From contig JAWAAW010000001.1 of the NCBI GenBank assembly GCA_038884975.1, positions 18,476-82,475 of the forward strand: a stretch of DNA of 64,000 nt, read 5' to 3'. This stretch comes from Candidatus Woesearchaeota archaeon. Lineage in GTDB: Archaea; Nanobdellota; Nanobdellia; Woesearchaeales; ARS49. The position numbers and the translations under genes are program-made. Positions 1 through 23,233 of the stretch are shown here, piece after piece; the stretch's first letter is position 1; the number at the start of each line of letters is the position of its first letter. The notes beneath the pieces were generated by a model. It saw only the letters and a list, made by a program, of their open reading frames with translations. It was not told where the DNA came from and did no database searches.

Positions 1-563
1 CAGTACTGCGCAGAAAAACAAAACCAATGCTCATAGTAGCAAACAAAATGGACCTTCCAACAGCAAAAACAAACCTGGAACGCATCAAAGAACAATTTCC
101 GGACTACATCTTCGTACCATGCTCTGCAGAAAGCGAGCTCGCCCTGAAAGAAGCCTCAAGAAAAGGGCTGATTGAGTACATCCCGGGAAGCAAGGACTTC
201 AAGCCAACAGGCGAATTGCAGCCAGCACAAGAAAATGCATTAAGGTTTATCAAGGAAAACGTGCTTGACATCTTTGGCTCGACAGGAGTACAACAGGCAA
301 TTGATACAGCAGTCTTTGAGTTACTCAAATACATCGCGGTTTTCCCAGGCGGAGTAACAAAGCTTGCAGACCAGTTCGGAAATGTACTTCCAGACTGCTT
401 CTTATTGCCTTCAGGAAGCACTGCACTTGACTTTGCGGCAAAAATCCACACAGACCTTGCAAAAAACTTTGTTGCGGCAATAGACGTGAAGACAAGAAGA
501 AAAGTGGGAAGGGACCATGTTCTGAAGCACAGGGACGTGATTGAGATACTAACCACAAAATAA
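1..563 (+). CDS. Obg-family GTPase (YchF/DRG-like), C-terminal part with TGS-like domain; 5' end lies outside the window
   Basis: Reading frame is open from the window edge. G4 motif NKMD (ANKMDL) is present. C-terminal segment GSTALDFAAKIHTDLAKNF...RDVIEIL resembles a TGS domain. Confidence 0.6.
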   Translation, partial: VLRRKTKPMLIVANKMDLPTAKTNLERIKEQFPDYIFVPCSAESELALKEASRKGLIEYIPGSKDFKPTGELQPAQENALRFIKENVLDIFGSTGVQQAIDTAVFELLKYIAVFPGGVTKLADQFGNVLPDCFLLPSGSTALDFAAKIHTDLAKNFVAAIDVKTRRKVGRDHVLKHRDVIEILTTK

Positions 564-1550
564 TTAATTGATTTTACCAAGCCCTGATGCCTGCTGGATG
601 TCAATAACGCCGAGAGACTTGTCAAGTATCAGAAAATTCCTTGTCTGGTTCTTGCCATTGCGCTTTGCAGCATACAGTGCCTTGTCAGCCTCTTTAAGCA
701 AGGTTTCAGGCGACACAGATGCATTCATGCACGTGGCAATCCCTATTGAGATTGTTGTTGGAAATTTTTCCTGAACAATCCCCCTCAAGCGCTCAGCAAA
801 CGCAAAAGCACGGTCATGCTGAGTTTCAGGCAGGATTATTGCAAATTCCTCACCGCCATAACGGGCAGGAATGTCAATTGACCTTATTGTCGCACGCAAA
901 ACCTCGCCAAGCTGCTTGAGCAGATTATCTCCCTCAACATGTCCATGGGAATCATTTAATTCCTTGAAGTTGTCAAAGTCAAACATCACAAGCGATATTG
1001 GGCGCTGAGACCTTGCGGACCTTGCCACTTCGTTCTTAAGCGCTTCAAGGAAGTATGCTTTGTTGTAAATCCCTGTGAGGGCATCAGTCATCGCAGAATA
1101 CTTAGCGTTCTGATAACACTGAGCCCTTCCAAGCGCAATTGACAACTTGTCAAGCAATAATGAAATAAGGTCAGTGCTGAGCAACTGCGCTGAAACACCA
1201 AGCACGAGCGTGGCAACATGCCTGTTCTGCAACCGAACAGGAAAAGCATAAATTTGTGCAGTTATCTTGTCAGAATCAGGAACATGCGAGGTCAGCACGT
1301 CTTTTCCTGAATTGGTAACCAGGACAAAAGAATTGTTAGAACTCACGTGATTATGCAAAGCCCTGCTCACTGCAAGAAAAACGTTGCTTGCAGGAACCCC
1401 AGAAACATTCTCGCCATTAACCCAAAAGGCACAATGTTCTGGCTTAAACACCCTTGACATGAAATCAGCTGTCTGATGAATCAATTGCTCAACAGTAGTG
1501 GCAGAATTAAGGCAGTCAAGATAATTCAGCAGGATATCCTTTTGGTCCAT
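564..1550 (-). CDS. GAF-like sensor domain fused to a GGDEF diguanylate cyclase
   Basis: C-terminal motifs are MFDFDNFKELND (metal site), RSID (RxxD I-site) five residues before RYGGEEF (A-site), and AKRNGKN. The N-terminal ~150 aa look like a GAF-type sensor. Confidence 0.85.
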   Translation of the reverse strand: MDQKDILLNYLDCLNSATTVEQLIHQTADFMSRVFKPEHCAFWVNGENVSGVPASNVFLAVSRALHNHVSSNNSFVLVTNSGKDVLTSHVPDSDKITAQIYAFPVRLQNRHVATLVLGVSAQLLSTDLISLLLDKLSIALGRAQCYQNAKYSAMTDALTGIYNKAYFLEALKNEVARSARSQRPISLVMFDFDNFKELNDSHGHVEGDNLLKQLGEVLRATIRSIDIPARYGGEEFAIILPETQHDRAFAFAERLRGIVQEKFPTTISIGIATCMNASVSPETLLKEADKALYAAKRNGKNQTRNFLILDKSLGVIDIQQASGLGKIN

Positions 1551-1650
1551 AAAGGGAGTTTATGCGTTGCTGTATAAATGCATTGCTGTGATTATGTAAG
1601 AATAAAATTATAAAAATAATTCAAAAAAACAAAAATTATTCCTTTACTGT

Positions 1651-2118
1651 TTAAGGTGTGCAGCAGTAAAAGTCCTCATAGCCTGAGGGGATTCTGCCAT
1701 CGCTGATTGCTTCTTCAGGCATTATTCCGGACCTTATGCAATTGCGTCCTGCTGCATTAATCGCAGTGACCTTCACAGTGTAAGGCGCGTATGGGCACGG
1801 ATTGTCCTTTACTGGACCTGTGCGCTTGTAATCACTGTTATACGTTGGTATTGGAACTGGCGCTCCACCGGTGTCCTTTATGCGCTCTGGGAAAACATAC
1901 TCTGCGCCGGCATAAACGCGATTATCACTGTACCGCACAAACCCTCCGTCGCTGTATTGGTCAAGCCCATAGGTTATTTCTCCGCCACCGTAGACCTTGG
2001 GTTGTTCCATCACTACCTTTCCTGCTCCGCCCTTGAAAAGCAGGACAAGCCCTACCACTGCAATAACTGCAACTATTCCGAGAATCGCGTACGCAACTCC
2101 CTTACCTTCATCTGCCAT
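1651..2118 (-). CDS. Small membrane-anchored Cys-containing protein (paralog family with 5227..5682)
   Basis: N-terminus MADEGKGVAYAILGIVAVIAVVGLVLLF is nearly identical in pattern to MAEEGRNLSLVILGIVAIIAVVGLVLLL of 5227..5682. C-terminus ends in YCCTP. Confidence 0.6.
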   Translation of the reverse strand: MADEGKGVAYAILGIVAVIAVVGLVLLFKGGAGKVVMEQPKVYGGGEITYGLDQYSDGGFVRYSDNRVYAGAEYVFPERIKDTGGAPVPIPTYNSDYKRTGPVKDNPCPYAPYTVKVTAINAAGRNCIRSGIMPEEAISDGRIPSGYEDFYCCTP

Positions 2119-2121
2119 GGT

Positions 2122-3279
2122 TTATTCACCTCTTTGTTGTTCTTGATTTTTCTTATTAGTATATAAATTTTTGCCAAGAGCATTAACAATTCTTTGCCTA
2201 AACCTCTGCAAGTCTGCGGGCCTGAAATGCGCACCTGCAGCAGGCACATGACCGCCCCCATTAGCACTCTTTAATCCCTTAACCGCACTCTTGAGTAGTT
2301 CGTTCATTCTCACGCGCTGGCTCTGACACCTTCCTGAAACGCGGACAATGTCCTTTCCCTTATCAACAATTATTATTGCATAATCATAATATTTCGTGTC
2401 AAGAGACAGCATTGTTGAAAGAGGCGAGTTAATATGGTATTTGGGAGTGATTTCATACCATATCAGCTTCAGCGTCTCATCCTTTTGCGCAATCTTTGGA
2501 GCAAGCCTTGCCCACTTACTAATTTCCTTCTCAAGCGATTTTCTGAGTGAAACAAGCTTCTTGTCTTTCAGGATGTCTGCAGGCGCTTTTGCCTTCATCA
2601 AAACATCATAACAATAATTAATGTTTTTGTCGTCAATAATCATTGCGGCAAGCAAAAGCTCTGAAACCTTACCAAGCTCTGTTTTGAACCAGTCCTTGGG
2701 ATTTGGCTTGATCTTGTGGCGCTCAAAAACCTGTGCCAGGAATTCAGGCCATGCGCTTCCTGCCATGTCACCAATCAACCCTATCGCTGCAATCCACGCA
2801 ACGTCCTCAATGCCCACATGTCTGTCTGCAAAATCATAAGCAAGCTTGCTTGCAGGATATCTTGAAGGATCAACCTCGTCTGCCAAAAGCTGAGGCATTG
2901 CAAGCACAGCCCTTTCAGAGGTTATGTCGTGAAAGAATGCGTGATGGTCAATTACAAGGATTTCACACTGCTTCTCAAGGCGCTTGATTGACGCCGCATC
3001 CTCGTGAACAGGAAGGTCTGTAAAAATCACCTTAAAGATTTTCCTGGACTTCAGCATTTTTAAAATGTCAGGAGTAACGCTGTTACGAACAAGCTTCCTT
3101 GTTGAATAATGGAAGTCAGCAGGCTTTCCGCGCAAGCGTTCAATCATCCTGCTAAGAACGACAGAAGAGCACAAGCCATCAGGGTCTGCATCATGGATTA
3201 TTGCAATCTTTTCCTTTGGCGAGAAAGACATTAGGAATCTATCAATTTTTGCCCATTGCTCCGGGTTTTTTGGTATCAT
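2122..3279 (-). CDS. DHH/DHHA1 family phosphoesterase (RecJ-like / nanoRNase-like)
   Basis: Motifs HDADPDG, VIDHH and C-terminal GGGHVPAAGA (DHHA1 GGGH) are present. Confidence 0.8.
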   Translation of the reverse strand: MIPKNPEQWAKIDRFLMSFSPKEKIAIIHDADPDGLCSSVVLSRMIERLRGKPADFHYSTRKLVRNSVTPDILKMLKSRKIFKVIFTDLPVHEDAASIKRLEKQCEILVIDHHAFFHDITSERAVLAMPQLLADEVDPSRYPASKLAYDFADRHVGIEDVAWIAAIGLIGDMAGSAWPEFLAQVFERHKIKPNPKDWFKTELGKVSELLLAAMIIDDKNINYCYDVLMKAKAPADILKDKKLVSLRKSLEKEISKWARLAPKIAQKDETLKLIWYEITPKYHINSPLSTMLSLDTKYYDYAIIIVDKGKDIVRVSGRCQSQRVRMNELLKSAVKGLKSANGGGHVPAAGAHFRPADLQRFRQRIVNALGKNLYTNKKNQEQQRGE

Positions 3280-3304
3280 TGGGCATCACAGCCCGCTGCA
3301 GAAT

Positions 3305-3686
3305 AAAAAAGGGGCGCGTACCAGAATCAGCATTGGCGATACGCGCCTGGTGAGAGAGGGGGATGAATGCGATTTCATTTTTTTCACAGGAGTGTGAGCC
3401 AGGACAGCTTTCCTGTCCTGGGGTGATTGTTGGTGTGGTTGCATTCTGTGCGCGCCAACGCAACTGATGCAATGCCACGCCTTGATGCAGTTTTTATTCT
3501 CTGTTGTTTCTGCTACCCGGCCCTGTCATCTCCACTGTTTCTTTGAGCGGGATTATTCGCAATGAACAGCATATCAAGGGTTTGTGCCCGGGCATTAGCG
3601 ATTACGTGTGGTTGGCGCTCAGCAAACCGGGTCAATGACTCGCGAACGCAAGTTTGTGCGCCGTTGCATCATGCGCTCGCGCCCTA
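3305..3686 (-). ncRNA. Candidate structured RNA of unknown class (free-standing ncRNA or long structured leader of the DHH gene)
   Basis: GC-rich stretch with no convincing ORF. On the minus strand, 5' GGGCGCG (3684..3678) is complementary to 3' CGCGCCC (3318..3312) and is followed by a U6 tract (3310..3305). An AT-rich TATA-like element TTTAATAA lies ~25 nt upstream (about 3710..3717). There is a perfect 9-bp hairpin CCAGGACAG-GAAAG-CUGUCCUGG and an 8-bp long-range pairing UGAUGCAA/UUGCAUCA. Confidence 0.4.
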
Positions 3687-3792
3687 TTTGTTGTTGCTCA
3701 TTTGGATACTTATTAAACAAAACAATTATATATACATAACGTACTTACAATATTACTAGTACGACAAGTAAGTACAAAACAGGTGGTAGTTA

Positions 3793-4725
3793 ATGCACAT
3801 CCGCAAGTTAGTCAAGGCAGGTCAGGCAAGCCACACAATTTCATTGCCAAAGGAATGGCTTGAAAAAAACAAACTCAGCAAAGGAGCAACTATTTACGTC
3901 TATGAAAAGTCTGATTCAGAACTCTTGATAACACCCACCCTAACCGAGAAAAAACCAACAGAACAAAATACAGTAACGATTAATGTGGACAACAAACAAC
4001 CAGATACAATACAACGCGAGATTTCTGCAGCGTATTTGAACAATGCAAGCACGATTGAACTTGTTGGCGAAAGCATAACCAAGCATGCAAAAGAAATCAG
4101 ACGAATGCTTCATGACTTTGTCGCGCTTGAAATATCAGAGCAAAACGCAAACAAAATAATCGCAAAAGACCTACTGAACCTCAAGGAAATTTCTGTTGAC
4201 AAGAGCATCAAGAGGATGGACATGATTACAAGGACGATGTTGCAGGACTGCAGAACGACAGTTGCAGGAAAAGACCTGAGCGAGAGCGTGATGTTCCGTG
4301 ATTATGACGTGAACAGGCTTTATTTCCTGCTCACAAGGCTTTTGAAAAGCGCGCTGGCAAGCCCAGAAATGGCATCATTGCTCGCGTTGGAGCCTGCAAA
4401 AGTGCTTGGCACATGGATGCTTGTGCATTACATTGAGGGACTTGCCGACGCTGTAAAAGCATTGTGCAAGGAATGCTCCTCCCTAAATGGGGGCCAGAAA
4501 AAGACAGTCAACTCACTCCTTAGTCTTTTGGAACAGGATTATCTTGACGTAATGAAGGCAGTCCACGAAGGAAACAGGCAGCTGGCTGACGAAGTTGCAA
4601 GAAGAAGAAGCGAAAGACTTGAACTGTGCACAAAGATAAACCAATTACCTGAAGTTTCTCACGCCTGCAGTTCCATAGCCTCAATACTGTCAGACATTGC
4701 AAGGCTGGTCATTGACGAGAACTAA
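3793..4725 (+). CDS. AbrB/SpoVT-type DNA-binding domain fused to PhoU-like domain (putative regulator)
   Basis: N-terminus MHIRKLVKAGQASHTISLPKEWLEKNKLSKGATIYV is a swapped-hairpin AbrB pattern, followed by a helical PhoU-like body. AGGTGG lies 7 nt upstream of the ATG. Paralog at 61285..62157. Confidence 0.7.
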   Translation: MHIRKLVKAGQASHTISLPKEWLEKNKLSKGATIYVYEKSDSELLITPTLTEKKPTEQNTVTINVDNKQPDTIQREISAAYLNNASTIELVGESITKHAKEIRRMLHDFVALEISEQNANKIIAKDLLNLKEISVDKSIKRMDMITRTMLQDCRTTVAGKDLSESVMFRDYDVNRLYFLLTRLLKSALASPEMASLLALEPAKVLGTWMLVHYIEGLADAVKALCKECSSLNGGQKKTVNSLLSLLEQDYLDVMKAVHEGNRQLADEVARRRSERLELCTKINQLPEVSHACSSIASILSDIARLVIDEN

Positions 4726-5093
4726 ACAAGGGTTTGTGGCTGACCGATGTTCTCAAATACCGGCGCTGAACGGCATTTCATCTGCACCATAAGCTTTGAA
4801 TGATAAATACAGTCTGCCTTAAGCCCCTGCCTACCGGGATTAAGGTATTCGCACTGGCGGTGGATGAACGAGTCCAGCGTGGTCGGCCTTTCCCTTGCAA
4901 GCACGCAAACCCCCTCATCAACCGGCACGTGCTGAGCAGGGTCGTTCTGATAAATGATTTCACCCTGCCCACGTATCTGCTGATACGCAGAAACCATTCC
5001 AGTTGATGCTGAAGAAAACGTAAGCGCAATTCCTGCAACTGCAACAACAAGAACAGCGCCAACAATCATAAGCATAATTGCCCTGTCTTCCAT
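4722..5093 (-). CDS. Small membrane-anchored Cys-containing protein
   Basis: Start trimmed to MEDRAIMLMIVGAVLVVAVAGIALTF (single N-terminal TM). Extracytoplasmic part carries 4 Cys. Confidence 0.5.
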   Translation of the reverse strand: MEDRAIMLMIVGAVLVVAVAGIALTFSSASTGMVSAYQQIRGQGEIIYQNDPAQHVPVDEGVCVLARERPTTLDSFIHRQCEYLNPGRQGLKADCIYHSKLMVQMKCRSAPVFENIGQPQTLV

Positions 5094-5226
5094 ATTATCA
5101 CTCTTTTTTGACCAATTTGTCACATTGCTATATAAACATTTTCATCGGATTAGCGTTAAGCACATGGTCTAGGCGTTTTTCAGGACCAACAAAAAGAATG
5201 AAAGAAAAAGAAGAAACAACAAAAAA

Positions 5227-5682
5227 TTATCTCTCTATCACGTATGGTCCGACAGGGACTCCAGAATCGCGCTCATTCGGAACGCCTGCAAAGTCATTGA
5301 ATGGCGGTCCCTTGACGAGCGACTCATCACCGTGGAGGATGCTCCTGTCATTCACTGTCGGGCAACAGCAGTACAGGTTGTCATCACCACTTACCAGAAC
5401 GCCTGGATAGCGCGGGTCCTGATAACCTGTCTTGAAGCAGCTCTTGCCAAACGCCTTCTCAAAGTCCTCTTTCTGATACAATGCGTCACGCTCTGTCGGT
5501 CCCATGAGTACTGGCGTGCACGGGCTGTCGCACATCGGCTTTCCGCCAAGTGCAGGAACGTTAAGTATCTGGCCCGTCTTGGCTGCCTTGCCTCCTGACA
5601 ACAGCAGGACCAGACCCACCACTGCAATAATTGCGACTATTCCCAGAATCACGAGACTCAGGTTTCTGCCTTCTTCAGCCAT
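5227..5682 (-). CDS. Small membrane-anchored Cys-rich protein (paralog of 1651..2118)
   Basis: Shares the N-terminal anchor with 1651..2118. Contains a YCCCP motif and several other Cys. Confidence 0.6.
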   Translation of the reverse strand: MAEEGRNLSLVILGIVAIIAVVGLVLLLSGGKAAKTGQILNVPALGGKPMCDSPCTPVLMGPTERDALYQKEDFEKAFGKSCFKTGYQDPRYPGVLVSGDDNLYCCCPTVNDRSILHGDESLVKGPPFNDFAGVPNERDSGVPVGPYVIER

Positions 5683-5762: not shown

Positions 5763-6077
5763 TTAGTGCAGTCCTGCAGTGCCGACAGAAGGATTCTGTT
5801 GCCACAATTCATAAGGCGGGCAGCAATTGCTTGTCCTAAAACAGCAGGGCGTTATACCATCATACCCAAAAAAGCACTTGTGCCCAAGCCGCTCATACCA
5901 AGCAATCTCCTTCAAATAAACCCCTGCGCCCTCAGCAAGAATCGGAGTTGAGCCAGGCGGGCAGATGCCAGTGCTTACTGCACCAGTAACTGAAGGACGC
6001 AAAAAATAAAACAGGAGCAACAGCGCAATGAGTGCAACAACTGCAACAACGCAGATGCACAGCGTCCTGAACTTCAT
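5763..6077 (-). CDS. Small membrane-anchored Cys-rich protein
   Basis: N-terminal TM MKFRTLCICVVAVVALIALLLLFYF. Mature part has PCC and NCC pairs. Confidence 0.5.
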   Translation of the reverse strand: MKFRTLCICVVAVVALIALLLLFYFLRPSVTGAVSTGICPPGSTPILAEGAGVYLKEIAWYERLGHKCFFGYDGITPCCFRTSNCCPPYELWQQNPSVGTAGLH

Positions 6078-18538: not shown

Positions 18539-18682
18539 ATGAAAAAACCAATTTCGGCAACAATAGAGGAAGACCTCATTGCCTGGATTGACAAAAAGGT
18601 TGCAAAAGAGAGAAAAAGATTTCGAAACAAGTCGCACCTCATAGAAGTCGCACTTGAAAAACTGCGCGAGGAGGAAGACTGA
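18539..18682 (+). CDS. Ribbon-helix-helix (CopG/Arc/MetJ-type) protein, 47 aa, absent from the ORF track
   Basis: Translation MKKPISATIEEDLIAWIDKKVAKERKRFRNKSHLIEVALEKLREEED fits the strand-helix-helix pattern (xxISxxIEEDL ... RNKSHLIEVALEKL). Its TGA overlaps the ATG of the ATPase gene (TGATG). Confidence 0.7.
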   Translation: MKKPISATIEEDLIAWIDKKVAKERKRFRNKSHLIEVALEKLREEED

Positions 18683-20955
18683 TGGCAGCGAAATGCGGGG
18701 TAAGCGAAGTCATCAAGGAAGGAGAGGAAATCACTATCAGGATAGACTGCGAATCATGCCCATACTTCCCATCACTTGAAGACGACCCCCGAGTCATGGC
18801 AATGGTGATTGACACCCTTGCAGAAGCAGGAACAGCCACAAAAATCGTTCTTGTACAAAAGCGTGACTACGAGTACGACTACAACCAGACTGCAATGCTC
18901 ATAGAGATTGCAAAACTTTTCAAACAATTAAGCAAGGAAAGGCTTTCTGCAGGAATACTCGCAAACCCCCTGACCAGAAGATTTGTCGAAGCAAAATATA
19001 CCGAACTGCAAAACATAATCCACCGTTCTCTGAAATCCGACCCCCTTGGCGCCTATGTGGAACTGGTGCGAATAGCCCGCCGGGAACGAACCCAGCTAGA
19101 GCAAGGCGCCATACCCCGAGAAGGTGTACCCTGCATCCAAACTTTCTTGGGCTTGGTCGAGACCATCGTCAGCCGAATGGAAAAAACACGGCTGATAACT
19201 TTGGCCAAGCCCGCCCTGGCGGGTTACACCCTTGGAGACAGAGAGATTTACAGGCGATTCTTCTCCCCCCTCGTAAAGCCTGACTTCATGTATACCAAGC
19301 TTCAGGCAAGCTACCCTGCAGAAGGAGAGGAAATCGAAAGCTACGAGGTTGGCGAGAATGAAGTAACAATATTCTCAATACCACAAACAGTCCAGTACCT
19401 TTACCACCTCTCGCCGCCAGAATTCAAGCTCAACGAGGAAAAATACGAGCTCCTTGACGCGGCAAGAAAAATACTTGCAGAACACAAACCAAAACGCTCC
19501 GAATTCGTTGACCCTGAAAGAATGAGGCAAGTCTTCACAAACGTCGGAATGGATCTTCTTGAAGAACTTGCAGGATACAGGAACATAAGGCTCAGAGAAA
19601 AAGAACTTGAGGAACTCACAAAAATACTTGTGAAGTACACTGTCGGCTTCGGGCTTGTCGAGAACATTCTTGAAGACGAAAAAGTGCAGGACATCACAAT
19701 CAATAGCCCAATGGGAAGAACCCCTATTTTCATTGTCCACGCAGAATACGGGGACTGCATGACAAACATAATGCCCACAGTCACAGAAGCAGAAAGCTGG
19801 GCATCAAAGCTAAGAATGATTTCAGGAAGGCCATTGGACGAAGCAAACCCCATCCTTGACACAGAGCTTGTCCTCCCAACTGCAAGGGCAAGAGTTGCCG
19901 CAATCACTGCCCCACTGAATCCAACAGGACTCGCTTATGCATTGAGAAGACACAGGGACAAGCCATGGACTCTGCCCTTATTCATCAAAACAAAAATGAT
20001 GACCCCTCTTGCTGCAGGAATCATCAGCTTCCTTGTTGACGGCTCAAGAACAATACTAGTGGCAGGAACAAGGAGCGCAGGAAAAACATCTGTGCTCGGC
20101 AGCATAATGACAGAAATAATGAGAAAAGGCCGCATAGTCACAATTGAAGACACCCTTGAACTACCTGTTGACGCATTAAGAAAACTCAATTACAACATAC
20201 AAAGCATGAAAGTGGCAAGCGCGCTCACAAGAGGAACAACAGAAGTCAGCGCTGACGAGGGCATAAGAACAACCCTGCGCCTTGGCGATTCTTCCCTAAT
20301 AGTCGGAGAAGTCAGGAGTGTTGAAGCAAAAGCACTATATGAAGCAATGCGTGTCGGCGCACTTGCCAATGTGGTGGCAGGAACAATACACGGAGACAGC
20401 CCTTACGGCGTATTTGACAGGGTCGTGAATGATTTAGGAGTGCCAAAAACATCATTCAAGGCAACAGACATAATCATTGTTGCAAATCCCGTGCGTTCGC
20501 CTGACGGACTTCACAGGTTCAGGCGAATCACCCAAATAACAGAAGTAAGGAAGAAATGGGAAGAAGACCCCCTTACAGAAGGAGGTTTTGTTGATCTCAT
20601 GAAGTACGAAAGCAAAGACGACATGCTCCAAGCAAGCCGCGACCTGCTAGCAGGCGACAGCGACATAATAAAGGCAATTGCTGGCTCTGTAAGAGAATGG
20701 GCAGGCAACTGGGAAGCAGTCTGGGACAACATACTCCTAAGGGCAAACATCAAGCAGGAGCTTGTAAGCACTGCAGACAAGCTAAAAAGACCTGAACTGC
20801 TTGAGGCAAATTTCAGCGTGCTAGCAAATGATGAATTCCACCGCATAAGCGAAAGAATAAGAGAGGAAGTTGGAGCACTTGACAGCAAGAAAATCTTTGC
20901 GGAATGGTGCGAATGGCTCAAGCGCACAATCAAGAAGCCAATGGTTCTCGAATGA
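18682..20955 (+). CDS. Type II/IV secretion-family ATPase (FlaI/ArlI/PilB-like), 757 aa with long N-terminal extension
   Basis: Walker A AGTRSAGKTS, Asp box TIEDTLEL, Walker B LIVGEVR and His box GTIHGDSP. Confidence 0.85.
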   Translation: MAAKCGVSEVIKEGEEITIRIDCESCPYFPSLEDDPRVMAMVIDTLAEAGTATKIVLVQKRDYEYDYNQTAMLIEIAKLFKQLSKERLSAGILANPLTRRFVEAKYTELQNIIHRSLKSDPLGAYVELVRIARRERTQLEQGAIPREGVPCIQTFLGLVETIVSRMEKTRLITLAKPALAGYTLGDREIYRRFFSPLVKPDFMYTKLQASYPAEGEEIESYEVGENEVTIFSIPQTVQYLYHLSPPEFKLNEEKYELLDAARKILAEHKPKRSEFVDPERMRQVFTNVGMDLLEELAGYRNIRLREKELEELTKILVKYTVGFGLVENILEDEKVQDITINSPMGRTPIFIVHAEYGDCMTNIMPTVTEAESWASKLRMISGRPLDEANPILDTELVLPTARARVAAITAPLNPTGLAYALRRHRDKPWTLPLFIKTKMMTPLAAGIISFLVDGSRTILVAGTRSAGKTSVLGSIMTEIMRKGRIVTIEDTLELPVDALRKLNYNIQSMKVASALTRGTTEVSADEGIRTTLRLGDSSLIVGEVRSVEAKALYEAMRVGALANVVAGTIHGDSPYGVFDRVVNDLGVPKTSFKATDIIIVANPVRSPDGLHRFRRITQITEVRKKWEEDPLTEGGFVDLMKYESKDDMLQASRDLLAGDSDIIKAIAGSVREWAGNWEAVWDNILLRANIKQELVSTADKLKRPELLEANFSVLANDEFHRISERIREEVGALDSKKIFAEWCEWLKRTIKKPMVLE

Positions 20956-23105
20956 GCAACAACAAACTTCCAGCGGACCTAGTACAAAAATACAAGCAGA
21001 AACTACAAAGCCAGCTGGACCTCTCAACTGCAGAACCAATTCCTGTAGTAAGCAGGGAGTACAAGACATTCAAGCAGGAATCAATGCCGGGTCACATGAG
21101 CGTCTACGAAAAGGGATGCAACTTTGCAGGCAGACTTCTTAAAATCAGAGTTGACCCAAAAAGGGCGCAAGAACTGCAAGAATCAATTGACATCGCCCAC
21201 CTGAACATAACCCCTTCAGGAGTTATTGCCTTCAGCGTCGTCTTCCCCCTCGCGTATATAATATTTGGTTGCCTGCTCAGTCTTGCAATCGCAACATCAT
21301 TGTTTTTCACACTATTCTTCCTCGTATCCGGAATCACCCTCATGATTGTATTTGGAAAATACCCAATGTTCCTGGCAAACAACTGGCGCATGAAAGCAAG
21401 CAACCAAATGGTGCTCTGCGTGTTCTACGTTGTCACGTACATGCGCCACACAAGCAACCTCGAGCTTGCAATAGAATTCGCATCAGAACACCTCACCCCG
21501 CCATTGGCGCTTGACCTGAAAAAAATATTGTGGGATGTTGAAACCCAAAAGTATGAAAGCGTCAAAGAAAGCCTTGAAATGTATCTTGAAACGTGGAGGA
21601 AATGGAACAATGAATTTGTTGAGGCATTCCACCTAATAGTGAGTTCGCTTTACGAAACATCAGAAGAAAGAAGGCTCGCTCTTCTTGACAAGTCGCTTGA
21701 CGTCATACTTGAGGAAACGTACGAGAGAATGCTGCATTATGCACAAAACCTCAAGGGACCAATCACAATGATTCACATGCTCGGAGTAATACTACCAATC
21801 CTCGGGCTAGTTATACTGCCGCTCGTGGTAAGCTTTATGAGCAATGTTAAATGGTACCACATTGCAACCCTTTATAACATAATACTGCCTGTTGTCGTGT
21901 ATTTGCTTGGAAAGAACGTTCTCAGCCGGCGTCCCACAGGATATGGAGACACAGACATCGCAGAACTCAATCCCGCGCTCAAGAAATACCGAAACATAGT
22001 AATAAGGCTTGGCAATACAGAACTGCAAATAAACCCCATCTTCATCTGCGCAATCATCGGAGGCCTGTTTTTACTCCTCGCCCTTATTCCAGTAATACTC
22101 CACACAATACAACCAGACCTAAGCTATGACATTTCATTACCTTTTGACTGGAAACTGCTTGAATACCGCCAAAACACTGAAACAGGCGAAATAATAGGTC
22201 CTTTCGGAATGGGCGCATCACTCCTAAGCCTTGCATTCCCCCTTGCCCTCGCATTCGGAATCGGCCTTTATTTCAAGATGCGGTCGCAGAACGTGATAAA
22301 GATAAGGGAACAGACAAAAAAACTTGAAGACGAGTTCGCAAGCGCGCTCTTCCAACTCGGAAACAGGCTCGGCGACGGCCTGCCTGCAGAGATTGCATTT
22401 GCAAAGGTAGCAGAAGTAATGCCTGACACCGTAAGCGGGCACTTTTTTGAGGTCGTTGCCACAAACATCATGAAGCTTGGAATGGGAGTCAAAGAAGCCT
22501 TATTCAATCCCAGAACAGGCGCGCTCGTGTACTTCCCAAGCAACGTAATCCAAAGCTCAATGAAAGTGCTGGTGGAAAGCATCAAGAAAGGACCTGCAAT
22601 AGCTGCGCAGGCACTTCTCAACGTGGCAAGATACATCAAAGAAATCCACAAAGTAAACGAACGCCTAAAGGACCTTATGGCAGACGTCATTTCAGACATG
22701 AAGTCACAAATAAGCTTTTTGACGCCGGCAATAGCAGGGATAGTAATAGCAATAACAAGCATGATAACCTTCATCCTCGGCTCGCTCACATCAAACATCC
22801 AAAACCTCGGCGCAACAGAACTCGCAGGCAAGATGAGCGACATTGCAGGAATGTTCGGAATGGGAGTCCCAACATACTACTTCCAACTCGTTGTGGGGGT
22901 TTATGTGTTCGAAATAGTATTCATCCTCACAATAATGGCAAATGGAATTGAGAACGGAGCTGACAAACTGCAGGAAAAATATAACCTGGGAGCAAACCTC
23001 ATCAAGAGCACAATGCTTTACTGCATGCTCAGCTTCATAATGATGATAATATTCAACATGATTGCCTCACGCATAGTTGGCGTTGCAGGAGTCATGGCTG
23101 GATAA
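20952..23105 (+). CDS. FlaJ/ArlJ/TadC-like polytopic platform protein (two T2SS-F-like helical domains)
   Basis: Start set at the ATG 20952 (ATGA overlap with the ATPase stop). Two cytoplasmic helical modules (ELAIEFASEHLTPPLALDLKKILWDVE... and EDEFASALFQLGNRLGDGLPAEIAFAKVAE...) are separated by TM blocks. Confidence 0.75.
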   Translation: MSNNKLPADLVQKYKQKLQSQLDLSTAEPIPVVSREYKTFKQESMPGHMSVYEKGCNFAGRLLKIRVDPKRAQELQESIDIAHLNITPSGVIAFSVVFPLAYIIFGCLLSLAIATSLFFTLFFLVSGITLMIVFGKYPMFLANNWRMKASNQMVLCVFYVVTYMRHTSNLELAIEFASEHLTPPLALDLKKILWDVETQKYESVKESLEMYLETWRKWNNEFVEAFHLIVSSLYETSEERRLALLDKSLDVILEETYERMLHYAQNLKGPITMIHMLGVILPILGLVILPLVVSFMSNVKWYHIATLYNIILPVVVYLLGKNVLSRRPTGYGDTDIAELNPALKKYRNIVIRLGNTELQINPIFICAIIGGLFLLLALIPVILHTIQPDLSYDISLPFDWKLLEYRQNTETGEIIGPFGMGASLLSLAFPLALAFGIGLYFKMRSQNVIKIREQTKKLEDEFASALFQLGNRLGDGLPAEIAFAKVAEVMPDTVSGHFFEVVATNIMKLGMGVKEALFNPRTGALVYFPSNVIQSSMKVLVESIKKGPAIAAQALLNVARYIKEIHKVNERLKDLMADVISDMKSQISFLTPAIAGIVIAITSMITFILGSLTSNIQNLGATELAGKMSDIAGMFGMGVPTYYFQLVVGVYVFEIVFILTIMANGIENGADKLQEKYNLGANLIKSTMLYCMLSFIMMIIFNMIASRIVGVAGVMAG

Positions 23106-23118
23106 AAGAATTATAAAA

Positions 23119-23233
23119 TGGGAGCGGTGAGATTTGAACTCACGACCCCACGGTAACAGAGGACCGCAAAGCCCGCTTCAGCCGTCTAAGCCAACCTTTT
23201 GGGCTGAGTGCTCTCCCGCTGAGCTACGCTCCC
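23119..23233 (-). tRNA. tRNA gene with ~43 nt of extra sequence between D and T arms (intron-containing); isotype unresolved, best guess Phe(GAA)
   Basis: Canonical acceptor GGGAGCG/CGCUCCC with discriminator A, D arm GCUC-AGCGGGA-GAGC and T arm GUGAG-UUCAAAU-CUCAC. The internal 66 nt contain a perfect arm AGCCC...CUGAAGC-GGGCU plus a second hairpin GCGGU-CCUCUGUU-ACCGU. Confidence 0.7.

What the first reader, a model, noticed from the sequence alone, without database searches (positions are those of the whole stretch)
564..1550. Apparently functional GAF-GGDEF diguanylate cyclase in an archaeal genomic context, close to a DHH/DHHA1 phosphoesterase
The C-terminal domain keeps every hallmark of active, product-inhibited cyclases: DFDNFKELND, the RxxD I-site (RSID) exactly five residues before the GGEEF A-site (compare the recalled PleD-type string RAIDLPCRYGGEEF), and AKRNGKN. 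c-di-GMP signalling is generally regarded as bacterial and rare or absent in archaea. Yet the flanking genes here are archaeal and tightly packed: the cyclase stop abuts the stop of the convergent GTPase gene at 563/564. A DHH/DHHA1 enzyme at 2122..3279 lies 570 bp away. That family includes pGpG/pApA-degrading nanoRNases and c-di-NMP phosphodiesterases. No EAL, HD-GYP or PilZ domain is visible in the window. This could be a horizontally acquired signalling module, and a link to the surface or pilus systems is speculation.
Basis: partly seen in the sequence, partly recalled or inferred. Interest (0 to 1): 0.6.

Follow-up and report, generated by a model that had tools for sequence, protein, structure and literature searches.

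The report
Native diguanylate cyclase of Woesearchaeota
A tiny DPANN archaeon (Woesearchaeota) carries an intact, long-inherited gene for the enzyme that makes the "bacterial" messenger c-di-GMP, plus a matching PilZ receptor elsewhere in its genome. None of the usual degrading enzymes is present, but archaeal cyclases of this kind were published in 2026, so this is a good new example and not a new kind of thing.

Summary
ORF 564..1550(-) encodes a 328-aa GAF-like + GGDEF protein with every catalytic motif and an RxxD I-site five residues before GGEEF. It lies inside a 140-kb archaeal contig of an 838-kb, ~100% complete Woesearchaeota genome.

It is neither a chimera nor a recent transfer:
- Orthologs sit at the same locus (YchF-type GTPase / GGDEF / DHH / AbrB-PhoU) in all 8 genomes of the genus and in at least 7 other genera.
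- GGDEF genes occur in 37/37 genomes of the family, 53/61 of the order sample and 190/401 of the phylum sample.

The genome has one PilZ protein with invariant RxxxR and DxSxxG motifs. It has no EAL, HD-GYP or any HD domain, and no c-di-AMP cyclase.

The neighbouring DHH/DHHA1 enzyme is catalytically intact and is a family-restricted extra paralog. It is usually directly upstream of a GGDEF gene. By sequence and fold it is an archaeal RecJ-type enzyme, not an NrnA/GdpP type, so a role in c-di-GMP or pGpG turnover is only a hypothesis (~0.3).

Sidorov et al. 2026 (PMC13725321) already showed that archaeal GGDEF proteins, including some from DPANN MAGs, act as diguanylate cyclases. Novelty: new member of a known kind. 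Interest 0.45.

The parts
564..1550 (-). GAF-GGDEF diguanylate cyclase gene (328 aa)
   Evidence: ORF. Pfam GGDEF 8.9e-44 and TIGR00254 1.1e-47. PDB profile hits to PleD 2.7e-45, WspR and GcbC. About 50 ortholog clusters of the same length, named Woesearchaeota.
1176..1550 (-). N-terminal GAF-like sensor domain (residues ~1-125)
   Evidence: Pfam GAF in 18/27 orthologs. Model secondary structure H-H-E-H-E-E-E. Foldseek top full-length hits are the GAF-GGDEF protein 4zmu and the phytochrome-cyclase 5llw. The ligand is unknown.
1095..1175 (-). long linker helix (residues 126-152) joining sensor and catalytic domain
   Evidence: Model helix H126-151. This matches the signalling-helix layout of sensor cyclases matched (inference).
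645..1094 (-). GGDEF catalytic domain (residues 153-302)
   Evidence: The catalytic residues are invariant in 27 orthologs.
873..884 (-). I-site RSID (residues 223-226)
   Evidence: RxxD is kept in 24 of 27 aligned orthologs, read from the alignment.
843..857 (-). A-site GGEEF (residues 232-236)
   Evidence: Invariant in the alignment.
588..632 (-). family-specific conserved C-terminal tail LILDKSLGVIDIQQA (residues 307-321)
   Evidence: D310, I316 and D317 are nearly invariant. The tail is modelled as an extra strand plus helix. Function unknown.
1551..1650 (-). 100-bp spacer with a T-run after the upstream gene and a TTTATA box ~30 nt before the cyclase ATG
   Evidence: Read from the sequence. 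The terminator and promoter roles are inferred only.
1651..2118 (-). small N-terminally anchored, Cys-rich protein (155 aa), inserted between DHH and GGDEF only in this genus
   Evidence: Present in the genus loci and absent in other genera, where DHH abuts GGDEF. No Pfam hit.
2122..3279 (-). DHH-A: RecJ-type DHH/DHHA1 phosphoesterase (385 aa), candidate partner
   Evidence: Pfam DHH + DHHA1. All DHH motifs and GGGH are invariant. Model pLDDT 92. Nearest folds are archaeal RecJ-Cdc45, RecJ2 and GAN, plus PAP phosphatase 8a8k. On the same strand within 1.6 kb of a GGDEF gene for 24 of the 37 DHH-A-type hits, covering 24 genomes.
3313..3347 (-). conserved inverted repeat GGCGCG-N23-CGCGCC followed by a T-run, 30-70 nt upstream of the DHH-A start
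   Evidence: Stem bases are invariant in 10 genomes of 3 genera, the spacer varies and the spacing is kept. Only one such site in the genome. No Rfam match.
3..563 (+). C-terminal part of a YchF-related GTPase, convergent, stop-to-stop with the cyclase
   Evidence: PRK09602 5.2e-68. Syntenic in relatives.
3793..4725 (+). AbrB/MazE-PhoU domain protein, divergent from DHH-A
   Evidence: Pfam PhoU + MazE_antitoxin. Syntenic in relatives.

Best explanation
The gene encodes a native, vertically inherited sensor diguanylate cyclase of a Woesearchaeota (DPANN) archaeon.

Proposed mechanism:
- An N-terminal GAF-like domain with an unknown ligand controls, through a long helix, the dimerisation of the C-terminal GGDEF domain.
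- The GGDEF domain condenses two GTP into c-di-GMP at the GGEEF site.
- The product feeds back on the RxxD I-site and caps its own level.
- In this genus the signal is read by at least one stand-alone PilZ protein (G000 contig C2:11541-11978) with intact c-di-GMP-binding motifs. That gene lies in front of a membrane-anchored ArsR-type regulator gene.

The genome has no EAL, HD-GYP or any HD-domain enzyme, and no c-di-AMP cyclase. Clearance must therefore be non-canonical. The only candidate seen is the co-inherited, catalytically intact RecJ-type DHH/DHHA1 enzyme directly upstream.

What is shown and what is inferred:
- Shown: domain content, motifs, fold, lineage-wide conservation and synteny, gene inventory.
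- Inferred: activity, product, ligand control, and the PilZ read-out.
- Inferred with lower probability (~0.3): DHH-A as a c-di-GMP or pGpG hydrolase.
For: Catalytic competence:
- GGDEF scores far above the cut-offs.
- The profile matches PleD, WspR, GcbC and DosC at 1e-42 to 1e-50.
- The Mg/guanine/transition-state residues are invariant in 27 orthologs: D191, D193, N199, D200, GH203-204, GD207-208, R230-GGEEF, K296.
- D208 (Asp, not Ser) marks the c-di-GMP type and not the Hypr/cGAMP type, a criterion also used in PMC13725321.
- The I-site is present.
- The catalytic domain of the model superposes on solved cyclases at rmsd 1.3-2.7 A.

Native and vertical:
- The identical protein is on a 227-kb contig, and the gene is 19 kb inside contig C1.
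- Gene order is the same in 8 genomes of the genus and in 7-8 other genera, with identity falling in step with the neighbours.
- The family's orthologs form a supported clade that follows genus and family (SH-aLRT 98).
- GGDEF occurs in 37/37 family genomes, 53/61 order genomes and 190/401 phylum genomes.

Receptor:
- PilZ scores 43 bits against a 22.5 cut-off.
- R13, R17 and D50-L51-S52-x-G54-G55 are invariant in 6 homologs.

No canonical phosphodiesterase and no c-di-AMP.

Precedent: archaeal and DPANN GGDEF proteins make c-di-GMP in heterologous hosts (PMC13725321).

DHH-A link:
- All catalytic motifs are invariant.
- It is an extra paralog restricted to this family. DHH-B is the near-universal one.
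- A GGDEF gene lies within 1.6 kb on the same strand for 24 of the 37 DHH-A-type hits, covering 24 genomes. In 5 genomes GGDEF genes flank it on both sides.
- Its stop abuts or overlaps the cyclase start in other genera.
- One fused DHH-DHHA1-PocR-GAF-GGDEF ORF exists at the same locus.
Against: Activity and product:
- No biochemical or expression data exist for this protein or organism. c-di-GMP has never been measured in an archaeal cell (PMC10249747; PMC13725321 abstract).
- The residue equivalent to PleD R446 is Lys (AKRNGKN).
- The window protein's own N-terminus does not reach Pfam GAF significance.

Receptor:
- PilZ is found in only 5/61 relatives, 4 of them in this genus. It cannot be the general receptor of the lineage.

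DHH-A:
- By sequence it matches archaeal RecJ at 1e-25 to 1e-17, against TmPDE at 6e-7 and GdpP at 8e-6.
- By fold, NrnA, GdpP and Rv2837c are not among the top 50 hits.
- The surrounding ~12 genes are also syntenic in the family, so adjacency is partly inherited gene order.
- The single fusion is a singleton, and its junction lies on an A7 homopolymer followed by TTG/GTG codons. It may be an indel artefact.
Confidence: 0.75

Rival explanations
1. The cyclase is real and active, but the DHH/DHHA1 neighbour is an ordinary RecJ-type nucleic-acid exonuclease with no role in c-di-GMP turnover, and the adjacency is inherited gene order. c-di-GMP would then be limited by I-site feedback, by dilution or export, or by an enzyme of an unrecognised family.
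For: - DHH-A is closest to archaeal RecJ-Cdc45, RecJ2 and GAN in both sequence and fold.
- A block of about 12 genes around the locus is syntenic across the family.
- 10 of 34 family genomes with DHH-A have it away from any GGDEF gene or on another contig.
- DHH-A is absent from most other GGDEF-bearing families of the order.
- The one fusion may be a homopolymer artefact.
Against: - DHH-A is an extra paralog that evolves faster and is restricted to one family. DHH-B is the conserved housekeeping-type copy.
- The DHH-GGDEF junction persists where the flanking junctions acquire insertions.
- It also persists with GGDEF partners of different architecture (300-520 aa).
- In 5 genomes GGDEF genes flank DHH-A on both sides.
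- No other phosphodiesterase candidate exists in the genome: no EAL, no HD, no HD-GYP.
- From general knowledge, GdpP/YybT is a precedent for a GGDEF + DHH/DHHA1 partnership.
Confidence: 0.5
2. The protein does not act as a c-di-GMP synthase in vivo. It could make another nucleotide, or act as a GTP or c-di-GMP sensor or scaffold.
For: - Some archaeal GGDEF proteins showed catalysis-independent phenotypes in Salmonella (PMC13725321).
- A canonical receptor is absent in most relatives.
- There are no canonical phosphodiesterases.
Against: - All catalytic residues are invariant under long-term selection.
- The specificity position carries Asp, not Ser.
- Degenerate GGDEF paralogs do exist in relatives and look clearly different. 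The second GGDEF of G004/G005 lacks the GGDEF motif.
Confidence: 0.1
3. The gene is bacterial DNA, either through a chimeric contig or bin contamination, or as a very recent horizontal acquisition.
For: - GGDEF domains are overwhelmingly bacterial.
- The domain is 40-49% identical to many bacterial cyclases.
- The backbone of the domain tree is unresolved, so ancient transfer or transfers from bacteria cannot be excluded.
Against: - The same locus and gene order occur in 15 or more independent assemblies from 8 or more genera.
- GC content is uniform.
- Archaeal genes lie on both sides.
- The ortholog clade tracks taxonomy.
- All close homologs are named Woesearchaeota.
Confidence: 0.02

Closest known systems
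Archaeal GGDEF diguanylate cyclases of Sidorov et al. 2026 (Mol Microbiol, PMC13725321), including DPANN MAG proteins such as KHO53289.1 and KHO53915.1
   Same: A GGDEF protein with conserved signature residues, encoded between unambiguously archaeal genes. GAF is among the N-terminal sensor domains reported. The paper shows cyclase activity of such proteins in Salmonella and E. coli reporters.
   Different: That paper calls the occurrence 'sporadic' and leaves phosphodiesterases and receptors open. Here the gene is a core syntenic gene of a whole family and is common in the phylum. It is also accompanied by a PilZ protein and a linked DHH enzyme. I could not check whether this exact ortholog group was among their 20 proteins, because no supplement is held.
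Dcsbis (PA2771) of Pseudomonas aeruginosa, a GAF-GGDEF cyclase (PDB 4zmu)
   Same: Same two-domain layout. Foldseek aligns 345-347 columns (E 1e-18). Active GGEEF-type site.
   Different: Only 23% identity. The relative domain orientation differs (TM 0.45). The host is bacterial. Here the GAF domain is too diverged to score in Pfam for the window protein itself.
PleD (1w25/2v0n) and WspR (3bre/3i5b), I-site-regulated cyclases
   Same: RxxD five residues before GG(D/E)EF, the same Mg and guanine ligands, 34-42% identity in the domain, and profile E 1e-43 to 1e-45.
   Different: Their control is through REC phosphorylation, whereas here it is through a GAF-like domain. Lys replaces the second basic residue of the AKxxGRN motif. 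A conserved 20-residue C-terminal tail is added.
GdpP/YybT (PAS-degenerate GGDEF-DHH/DHHA1 cyclic-dinucleotide phosphodiesterase; general knowledge, Pfam PF24898)
   Same: It pairs a GGDEF domain with a DHH/DHHA1 phosphoesterase that cleaves cyclic dinucleotides. It is the nearest precedent for the gene pair seen here.
   Different: In GdpP the GGDEF domain is degenerate, the domains are fused, and the substrate is mainly c-di-AMP. Here the GGDEF domain is intact, the genes are separate, no c-di-AMP cyclase exists, and the DHH enzyme is RecJ-like. The GdpP catalytic domain scores only 8e-6.
Archaeal RecJ/Cdc45 family (M. thermautotrophicus RecJ-Cdc45 7bhi, M. jannaschii RecJ2 6tvv, P. furiosus RecJ 5x4h, T. 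kodakarensis GAN 5ghr)
   Same: Best sequence matches (1e-25 to 1e-17) and best fold matches (E ~1e-18, TMq 0.6-0.72) for DHH-A. It shares the DHH motifs, GGGH and a helical inter-domain linker.
   Different: DHH-A is 60-115 residues shorter. It scores 70 bits against a 360-bit cut-off for NCBIfam RecJ_archaeal. It is the non-universal paralog and is genomically tied to GGDEF genes.
Stand-alone PilZ c-di-GMP receptors of bacteria (Pfam PF07238)
   Same: The 145-aa protein consists of a PilZ domain with RRxxxR and DxSxxG.
   Different: The host is archaeal. The family is tiny (6 clusters found). It is restricted to part of one genus plus one other genome. Its neighbour is a membrane-anchored ArsR-type HTH gene.

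Membership tests
GGDEF diguanylate cyclases (PF00990 / TIGR00254) | Domain model above the curated cut-off | tested here: met
   149.5 bits against 23.8; 161.9 bits against 37.4.
GGDEF diguanylate cyclases (PF00990 / TIGR00254) | GG(D/E)EF active-site hairpin | tested here: met
   GGEEF at residues 232-236, invariant in 27 orthologs.
GGDEF diguanylate cyclases (PF00990 / TIGR00254) | Metal-binding Asp and guanine-binding Asn/Asp (PleD D327, N335, D344), with Asp and not Ser at the specificity position | tested here: met
   FDFDNFKELND...GHVEGD. D191, D193, N199, D200, G207 and D208 are invariant.
GGDEF diguanylate cyclases (PF00990 / TIGR00254) | Transition-state Lys/Arg of the AKxxGRN motif (PleD K442, R446) | tested here: inconclusive
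   K296 is invariant. The second position is Lys300 in place of Arg, and is K or R across the orthologs.
GGDEF diguanylate cyclases (PF00990 / TIGR00254) | RxxD allosteric I-site five residues upstream of the A-site | tested here: met
   RSID at 223-226; kept in 24/27 orthologs.
GGDEF diguanylate cyclases (PF00990 / TIGR00254) | Makes c-di-GMP from GTP | not testable with these tools
   Needs an enzyme assay. Related archaeal proteins were positive in vivo (PMC13725321).
GAF sensor domain (PF01590) | Domain model or fold match at the N-terminus | tested here: inconclusive
   No hit for the window protein. 18/27 orthologs hit GAF, best E 1.3e-6. The full-length fold match to GAF-GGDEF 4zmu supports a GAF-like fold.
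PilZ c-di-GMP receptors (PF07238), protein at G000 C2:11541-11978 | Domain above the cut-off, plus the RxxxR and (D/N)xSxxG motifs | tested here: met
   42.5-43.2 bits against 22.5. RRGYER and DLSGGG are present, and both motifs are invariant in 6 homologs.
PilZ c-di-GMP receptors (PF07238), protein at G000 C2:11541-11978 | Binds c-di-GMP | not testable with these tools
   Needs DRaCALA, ITC or a similar assay.
NrnA/GdpP/Pde2-type DHH/DHHA1 cyclic-dinucleotide or nanoRNA phosphodiesterases (for DHH-A) | DHH motifs I-IV and the DHHA1 GGGH motif | tested here: met
   D32, D34, D88, D111-H112-H113, D171 and G342-G343-H344 are invariant or nearly so.
NrnA/GdpP/Pde2-type DHH/DHHA1 cyclic-dinucleotide or nanoRNA phosphodiesterases (for DHH-A) | Closest relatives in sequence or fold are NrnA/GdpP-type enzymes | tested here: not met
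   Archaeal RecJ enzymes score 1e-25 to 1e-17, against TmPDE 6e-7, GdpP 8e-6 and 5xsi 0.5. No NrnA, GdpP or Rv2837c structure is in the Foldseek top 50.
Archaeal RecJ / GAN / Cdc45 nucleases (for DHH-A) | NCBIfam equivalog cut-off (RecJ_archaeal, GAN_nuclease) | tested here: not met
   70.2 bits against 360; 40.5 bits against 850. The fold is nevertheless closest to this group.
EAL / HD-GYP c-di-GMP phosphodiesterases | Any EAL (PF00563), HD_5 (PF13487) or HD (PF01966) domain in the genome | tested here: not met
   0 matches in the genome for each, while the control genomes gave matches.

The most novel reading that the evidence does not exclude
One Woesearchaeota family runs a minimal, self-contained c-di-GMP circuit that has replaced the c-di-AMP signalling of other archaea. 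It would work without any EAL or HD-GYP enzyme. A GAF-GGDEF cyclase makes the signal. A RecJ-derived DHH/DHHA1 paralog (DHH-A), co-transcribed with or translationally coupled to the cyclase, breaks it down, either c-di-GMP directly or pGpG. In this genus a stand-alone PilZ protein passes the signal to a membrane-anchored ArsR-type regulator. DHH-A would then be a new class of c-di-GMP-turnover enzyme that arose from the archaeal RecJ/Cdc45 lineage.
Probability: 0.2. Interest if true: 0.7.

Novelty: new member of a known kind. Interest (0 to 1): 0.45.

Why it matters
Until 2026, c-di-GMP signalling was treated as a bacterial trait (PMC10249747). Sidorov et al. 2026 showed that archaeal GGDEF proteins can make c-di-GMP. 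They left three questions open: how widespread the genes are, which phosphodiesterases accompany them, and what the receptors are.

This locus bears on all three.
- Spread: in Woesearchaeota-type DPANN archaea the cyclase is a common, vertically inherited gene. It occurs in all 37 family genomes and in 47% of 401 high-quality phylum genomes.
- Phosphodiesterases: canonical ones are absent from this genome.
- Receptors: a PilZ protein with intact binding motifs is a concrete candidate for an archaeal receptor.
- Turnover: the RecJ-type DHH enzyme is a concrete, cheap-to-test candidate.

All three proteins are small and soluble, and can be assayed in E. coli without culturing the archaeon.

Tried and rejected
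Synteny in independent assemblies was used as a substitute.
2. MshEN-type receptor. No motif match was found in any ORF of the genome. The 757-aa FlaI-like ATPase in the window has no T2SSE_N domain.
3. Remnant of the second, degenerate GGDEF gene that G004-G007 carry between DHH and PhoU. Nothing is left in window 3280-3792.
4. HD protein next to PilZ in a relative (L051). It has no ortholog in this genome.
5. Defence-system membership. There were no PADLOC hits.
6. Riboswitch or known RNA in the conserved DHH leader. There were no Rfam hits even at E <= 1.
7. A regulon for the GGCGCG-N23-CGCGCC repeat. There is only one such site with these flanks in the genome.
8. Nearest bacterial donor.
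   - The 140-sequence domain tree has an unresolved backbone (75 of 137 inner branches below 80). Neither a single origin nor several origins can be claimed.
9. Fusion as Rosetta-stone evidence. One fusion was found. I downgraded it because it is a singleton with an A7 homopolymer at the junction.
10. Supplement of PMC13725321, to see whether this ortholog was among the proteins tested. The supplement is not held.
Full report
**1. Observation**

ORF 564..1550 on the minus strand encodes 328 residues.
- Pfam GGDEF covers residues 153-302 (E 8.9e-44). TIGR00254 scores 1.1e-47, and PleD, SiaD and DgcS models also match over the same stretch.
- The stop codon abuts the stop of the convergent GTPase ORF at 563/564.
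- The DHH/DHHA1 ORF 2122..3279 lies 572 bp upstream on the same strand.

The N-terminal 150 residues of the window protein give no Pfam hit.
- 18 of 27 aligned orthologs do hit GAF.
- The AlphaFold2 model (mean pLDDT 87.6) shows a helix/strand pattern followed by a long helix (126-151).
- Foldseek ranks the GAF-GGDEF cyclase Dcsbis (4zmu, 345-347 aligned columns) and phytochrome-linked cyclases (5llw) first.
- 'GAF-like' is therefore justified, with the reservation that the window protein's own sequence is too diverged to score.

**2. Organism and context**

The window is C1:18476-82475 of an 838-kb, 17-contig genome rated 99.95% complete. Close homologs of the cyclase are named 'Candidatus Woesearchaeota archaeon'.

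The window encodes the following:
- replication factor C large subunit, Mre11 and a FlaI-like ATPase;
- archaeal-type AspRS(ND), GlyRS and ValRS;
- a YchF-related GTPase (PRK09602);
- a tRNA with an intron.

GC content is flat at 0.41-0.48. The cyclase gene lies 19 kb inside the contig, and the identical protein is also recorded on a 227-kb contig.

**3. Not a chimera, not a recent transfer**

I fetched about 14 kb around the ortholog in 17 related genomes.
- The order GTPase (convergent) / GGDEF / [small protein] / DHH / AbrB-PhoU (divergent) is kept in all seven other genomes of the genus. Cyclase identity there is 67-95%.
- It is also kept in G008, G010, G012, G015, G027, G033 and G035, which belong to other genera. 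There cyclase identity is 31-49%, DHH 27-42% and GTPase 53-69%.
- A metagenome contig fetched later (L173) shows the same order.

I built a tree of 140 GGDEF domains: 60 from Nanoarchaeota and 80 from named bacteria.
- The window groups with its genus, and then with its family, in a clade with SH-aLRT 98.
- Archaeal sequences cluster far more than chance. The 'Bacteria' label needs 12 changes on the tree, against a shuffled mean of 45.
- The backbone is unresolved, so the number and age of transfers between the domains of life stay open.

**4. How common**

| Domain | Where searched | Genomes with a match |
|---|---|---|
| GGDEF (PF00990) | own family | 37/37 |
| GGDEF (PF00990) | order sample | 53/61 |
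| GGDEF (PF00990) | high-quality phylum genomes | 190/401 (153 of 281 genera) |
| EAL | order sample | 1 over the cut-off |
| HD_5 (HD-GYP type) | order sample | 21/61, strong hits only outside the family, none in the genus |
| PilZ | order sample | 5/61, four in this genus |
| DAC (c-di-AMP cyclase) | order sample | 3/61, none in this genome |

The DAC search did find matches in the euryarchaeal control genomes. This genome has no HD-superfamily domain at all (PF01966, 0 hits, while all 14 controls gave hits). In this lineage the GGDEF enzyme is therefore the only recognisable cyclic-dinucleotide synthase, and the canonical degrading enzymes are missing.

**5. Catalytic competence**

In an alignment of 27 orthologs (31-86% identical), the following are invariant:
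- D191, D193, N194, F195, K196, N199, D200;
- G203, H204, G207, D208;
- R230-GGEEF-236;
- K296, G299, N301.

Further points:
- RxxD is kept in 24 of 27.
- The specificity residue before the helix (GHxxGD) is Asp, not the Ser of Hypr/cGAMP enzymes. PMC13725321 uses the same criterion.
- A profile of the family matches GcbC, Marinobacter 3ign, PleD, WspR, DgcR and DosC at 1e-50 to 1e-42.
- The catalytic domain of the model superposes on solved cyclases at 1.3-2.7 A.
- The one deviation is Lys in place of Arg at the second basic position of AKxxGRN.
- A conserved extra C-terminal tail, (I/L)(I/L)DKxLGVIDVQxA, is specific to this archaeal family. Its role is unknown.

**6. Receptor**

The genome's single PilZ hit is at C2:11541-11978 and encodes 145 aa.
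- It carries RRGYER and DLSGGG.
- In its six known homologs, R13, R17 and D50-L51-S52-x-G54-G55 are invariant.
- It is followed within 37 bp by an ArsR-type HTH protein with a C-terminal membrane segment, and then by a SIMPL/DUF541 protein.
- Most relatives with a cyclase lack PilZ, so other receptors must exist in the lineage.
- No MshEN motif or T2SSE_N domain was found.
- Some members of the genus carry a second, degenerate GGDEF protein next to DHH-A. It lacks the GGDEF motif and could be a sensor. It is absent here, with no remnant.

**7. The DHH/DHHA1 neighbour (DHH-A)**

It is catalytically intact. The DxD, D, DHH, D and GGGH motifs are invariant in 33 homologs, and the model has pLDDT 92.

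Evidence for a link to the cyclase:
- a. It is an extra paralog.
  - DHH-B (C11:12069-13127) is found in 57/61 genomes at 36-92% identity.
  - DHH-A orthologs (E <= 1e-30) are confined to the family plus one other genome, and diverge faster.
- b. A GGDEF gene lies on the same strand within 1.6 kb for 24 of the 37 DHH-A-type hits, which fall in 24 genomes.
  - In 18 of these the GGDEF gene is downstream.
  - In G004-G007 and G024, GGDEF genes lie on both sides.
- c. In other genera the DHH stop abuts or overlaps the cyclase start.
- d. The GGDEF partner varies in architecture (300-520 aa), yet the pairing stays.
- e. One 871-aa ORF at the same locus fuses DHH-DHHA1 to PocR-GAF-GGDEF.
- f. The genome has no other candidate phosphodiesterase, and no c-di-AMP for this enzyme to degrade.

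Evidence against a link:
- By sequence and fold it is an archaeal RecJ/Cdc45-type enzyme.
  - P. furiosus RecJ scores 1e-25, M. jannaschii RecJ2 2e-23 and GAN 3e-23.
  - TmPDE scores 6e-7 and GdpP 8e-6.
  - The Foldseek top 50 holds no NrnA, GdpP or Rv2837c structure. The best compact match is an archaeal PAP phosphatase (8a8k, TMt 0.82).
- About 12 genes around the locus are syntenic across the family, so adjacency is partly inherited order.
- The fusion is a singleton. Its junction sits on an A7 run, directly followed by TTG/GTG codons where the unfused cyclases begin, so an indel artefact is plausible.

I put the probability that DHH-A hydrolyses c-di-GMP or pGpG at about 0.3.

**8. Regulation (inferred only)**

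- In this genus a 155-aa Cys-rich anchored protein gene has been inserted between DHH-A and the cyclase.
- The 100-bp spacer before the cyclase holds a T-run and a TTTATA box about 30 nt from the ATG. The cyclase may therefore have its own promoter here.
- Upstream of DHH-A, an inverted repeat GGCGCG-N23-CGCGCC abuts a T-rich box. It is conserved in three genera, with a variable spacer sequence.
- This fits an operator for a dimeric regulator better than a stable RNA hairpin. The divergent AbrB-PhoU gene is an obvious but untested candidate for that regulator.

**9. What is known**

- The 2023 review PMC10249747 states that c-di-GMP has not been described in archaea, and that diguanylate cyclases, EAL and PilZ are almost exclusively bacterial.
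- PMC13725321 (Sept 2026) identified GGDEF proteins in archaeal isolates and in MAGs, 'mainly ... DPANN and class II'. Some carry GAF N-termini.
- That paper showed cyclase activity in Salmonella and E. coli assays. It calls the occurrence sporadic, and lists phosphodiesterase co-occurrence and receptors as open questions.
- The existence and likely activity of DPANN GGDEF cyclases are thus already published.

What this locus adds:
- the lineage-wide, syntenic conservation of the gene;
- the gene inventory (PilZ present; EAL, HD-GYP, HD and DAC absent);
- the RecJ-type partner.

**10. Verdict**

- Observation confirmed. Interpretation partly supported.
- It is a new member of a known kind, and a well-defined set of three small proteins for bench tests.
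- Interest 0.45.
- Earlier notes of this scan on sister genomes reached similar conclusions and disagreed about the DHH partner. I used them as leads only and re-tested the points listed in 'earlier findings used'.

Noticed in passing
window 3280-3792 (minus strand sense), core at 3313-3347: The 513-bp DHH/PhoU intergenic region is 83% identical across four species of the genus, about as conserved as the flanking proteins. Its promoter-proximal ~100 nt are 97% identical even to G005. It contains an inverted repeat GGCGCG-N23-CGCGCC plus a T-run that is conserved in other genera. There is no Rfam match. It could be an operator or leader element, or a non-coding RNA.
   Followed up: partly
window 1651-2118, 4722-5123, 5227-5682, 5763-6077 (all minus strand): Four paralogous small proteins (104-155 aa), each with one N-terminal hydrophobic anchor and a Cys-rich tail, and no Pfam hits. 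One of them has been inserted between DHH-A and the cyclase in this genus only.
   Followed up: partly
G000 whole genome: The genome has no HD-superfamily domain (PF01966) at all, although all 14 control genomes have one. It also has no DAC c-di-AMP cyclase, which is present in only 3 of 61 relatives.
   Followed up: partly
L034:3890-4750 (G005), and equivalents in G004, G006 and G007: A second, degenerate GGDEF gene (287 aa, no GGDEF motif, insertion in the domain) lies between PhoU and DHH-A in a subclade of the genus. DHH-A is therefore flanked by GGDEF genes on both sides there. The gene is absent from the window without a remnant.
   Followed up: partly
G000 C2:11541-13334 (L002:1369-3162): PilZ, an ArsR-type HTH protein with a C-terminal membrane segment, and a SIMPL/DUF541 protein lie head to tail with 30-40-bp gaps. 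In a relative, PilZ also follows a GDE_C glucosidase gene.
   Followed up: partly
G000 C11:12069-13127 and C3:11100-12065: Two further DHH/DHHA1 paralogs. DHH-B (352 aa) is near-universal in the order. A 321-aa protein has a degenerate DHH motif (NSHH) but keeps GGGGH.
   Followed up: partly
L173:4001-6616 (ENA ERZ21828334 contig-100_2346): An 871-aa ORF fuses DHH-DHHA1 with PocR-GAF-GGDEF at the syntenic locus. It is a singleton, and its junction lies on an A7 homopolymer. Other fusions in the family are GNAT-DHH-GNAT (P0298, 731 aa) and methyltransferase-DHH (P0169, 556 aa).
   Followed up: partly
window 588-632 (residues 307-321 of the cyclase): A conserved C-terminal tail, (I/L)(I/L)DKxLGVIDVQxA, lies beyond the GGDEF domain. 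It is specific to this archaeal ortholog group and modelled as a strand plus helix.
   Followed up: no
window 18682-23105: A 757-aa FlaI-like ATPase has an unassigned ~290-residue N-terminal extension. It is followed by a 733-aa protein with no family match. No MshEN or T2SSE_N domain was detected.
   Followed up: partly
window 23119-23233 (minus strand): Rfam finds a 115-nt tRNA that ARAGORN misses. It probably carries an intron.
   Followed up: no
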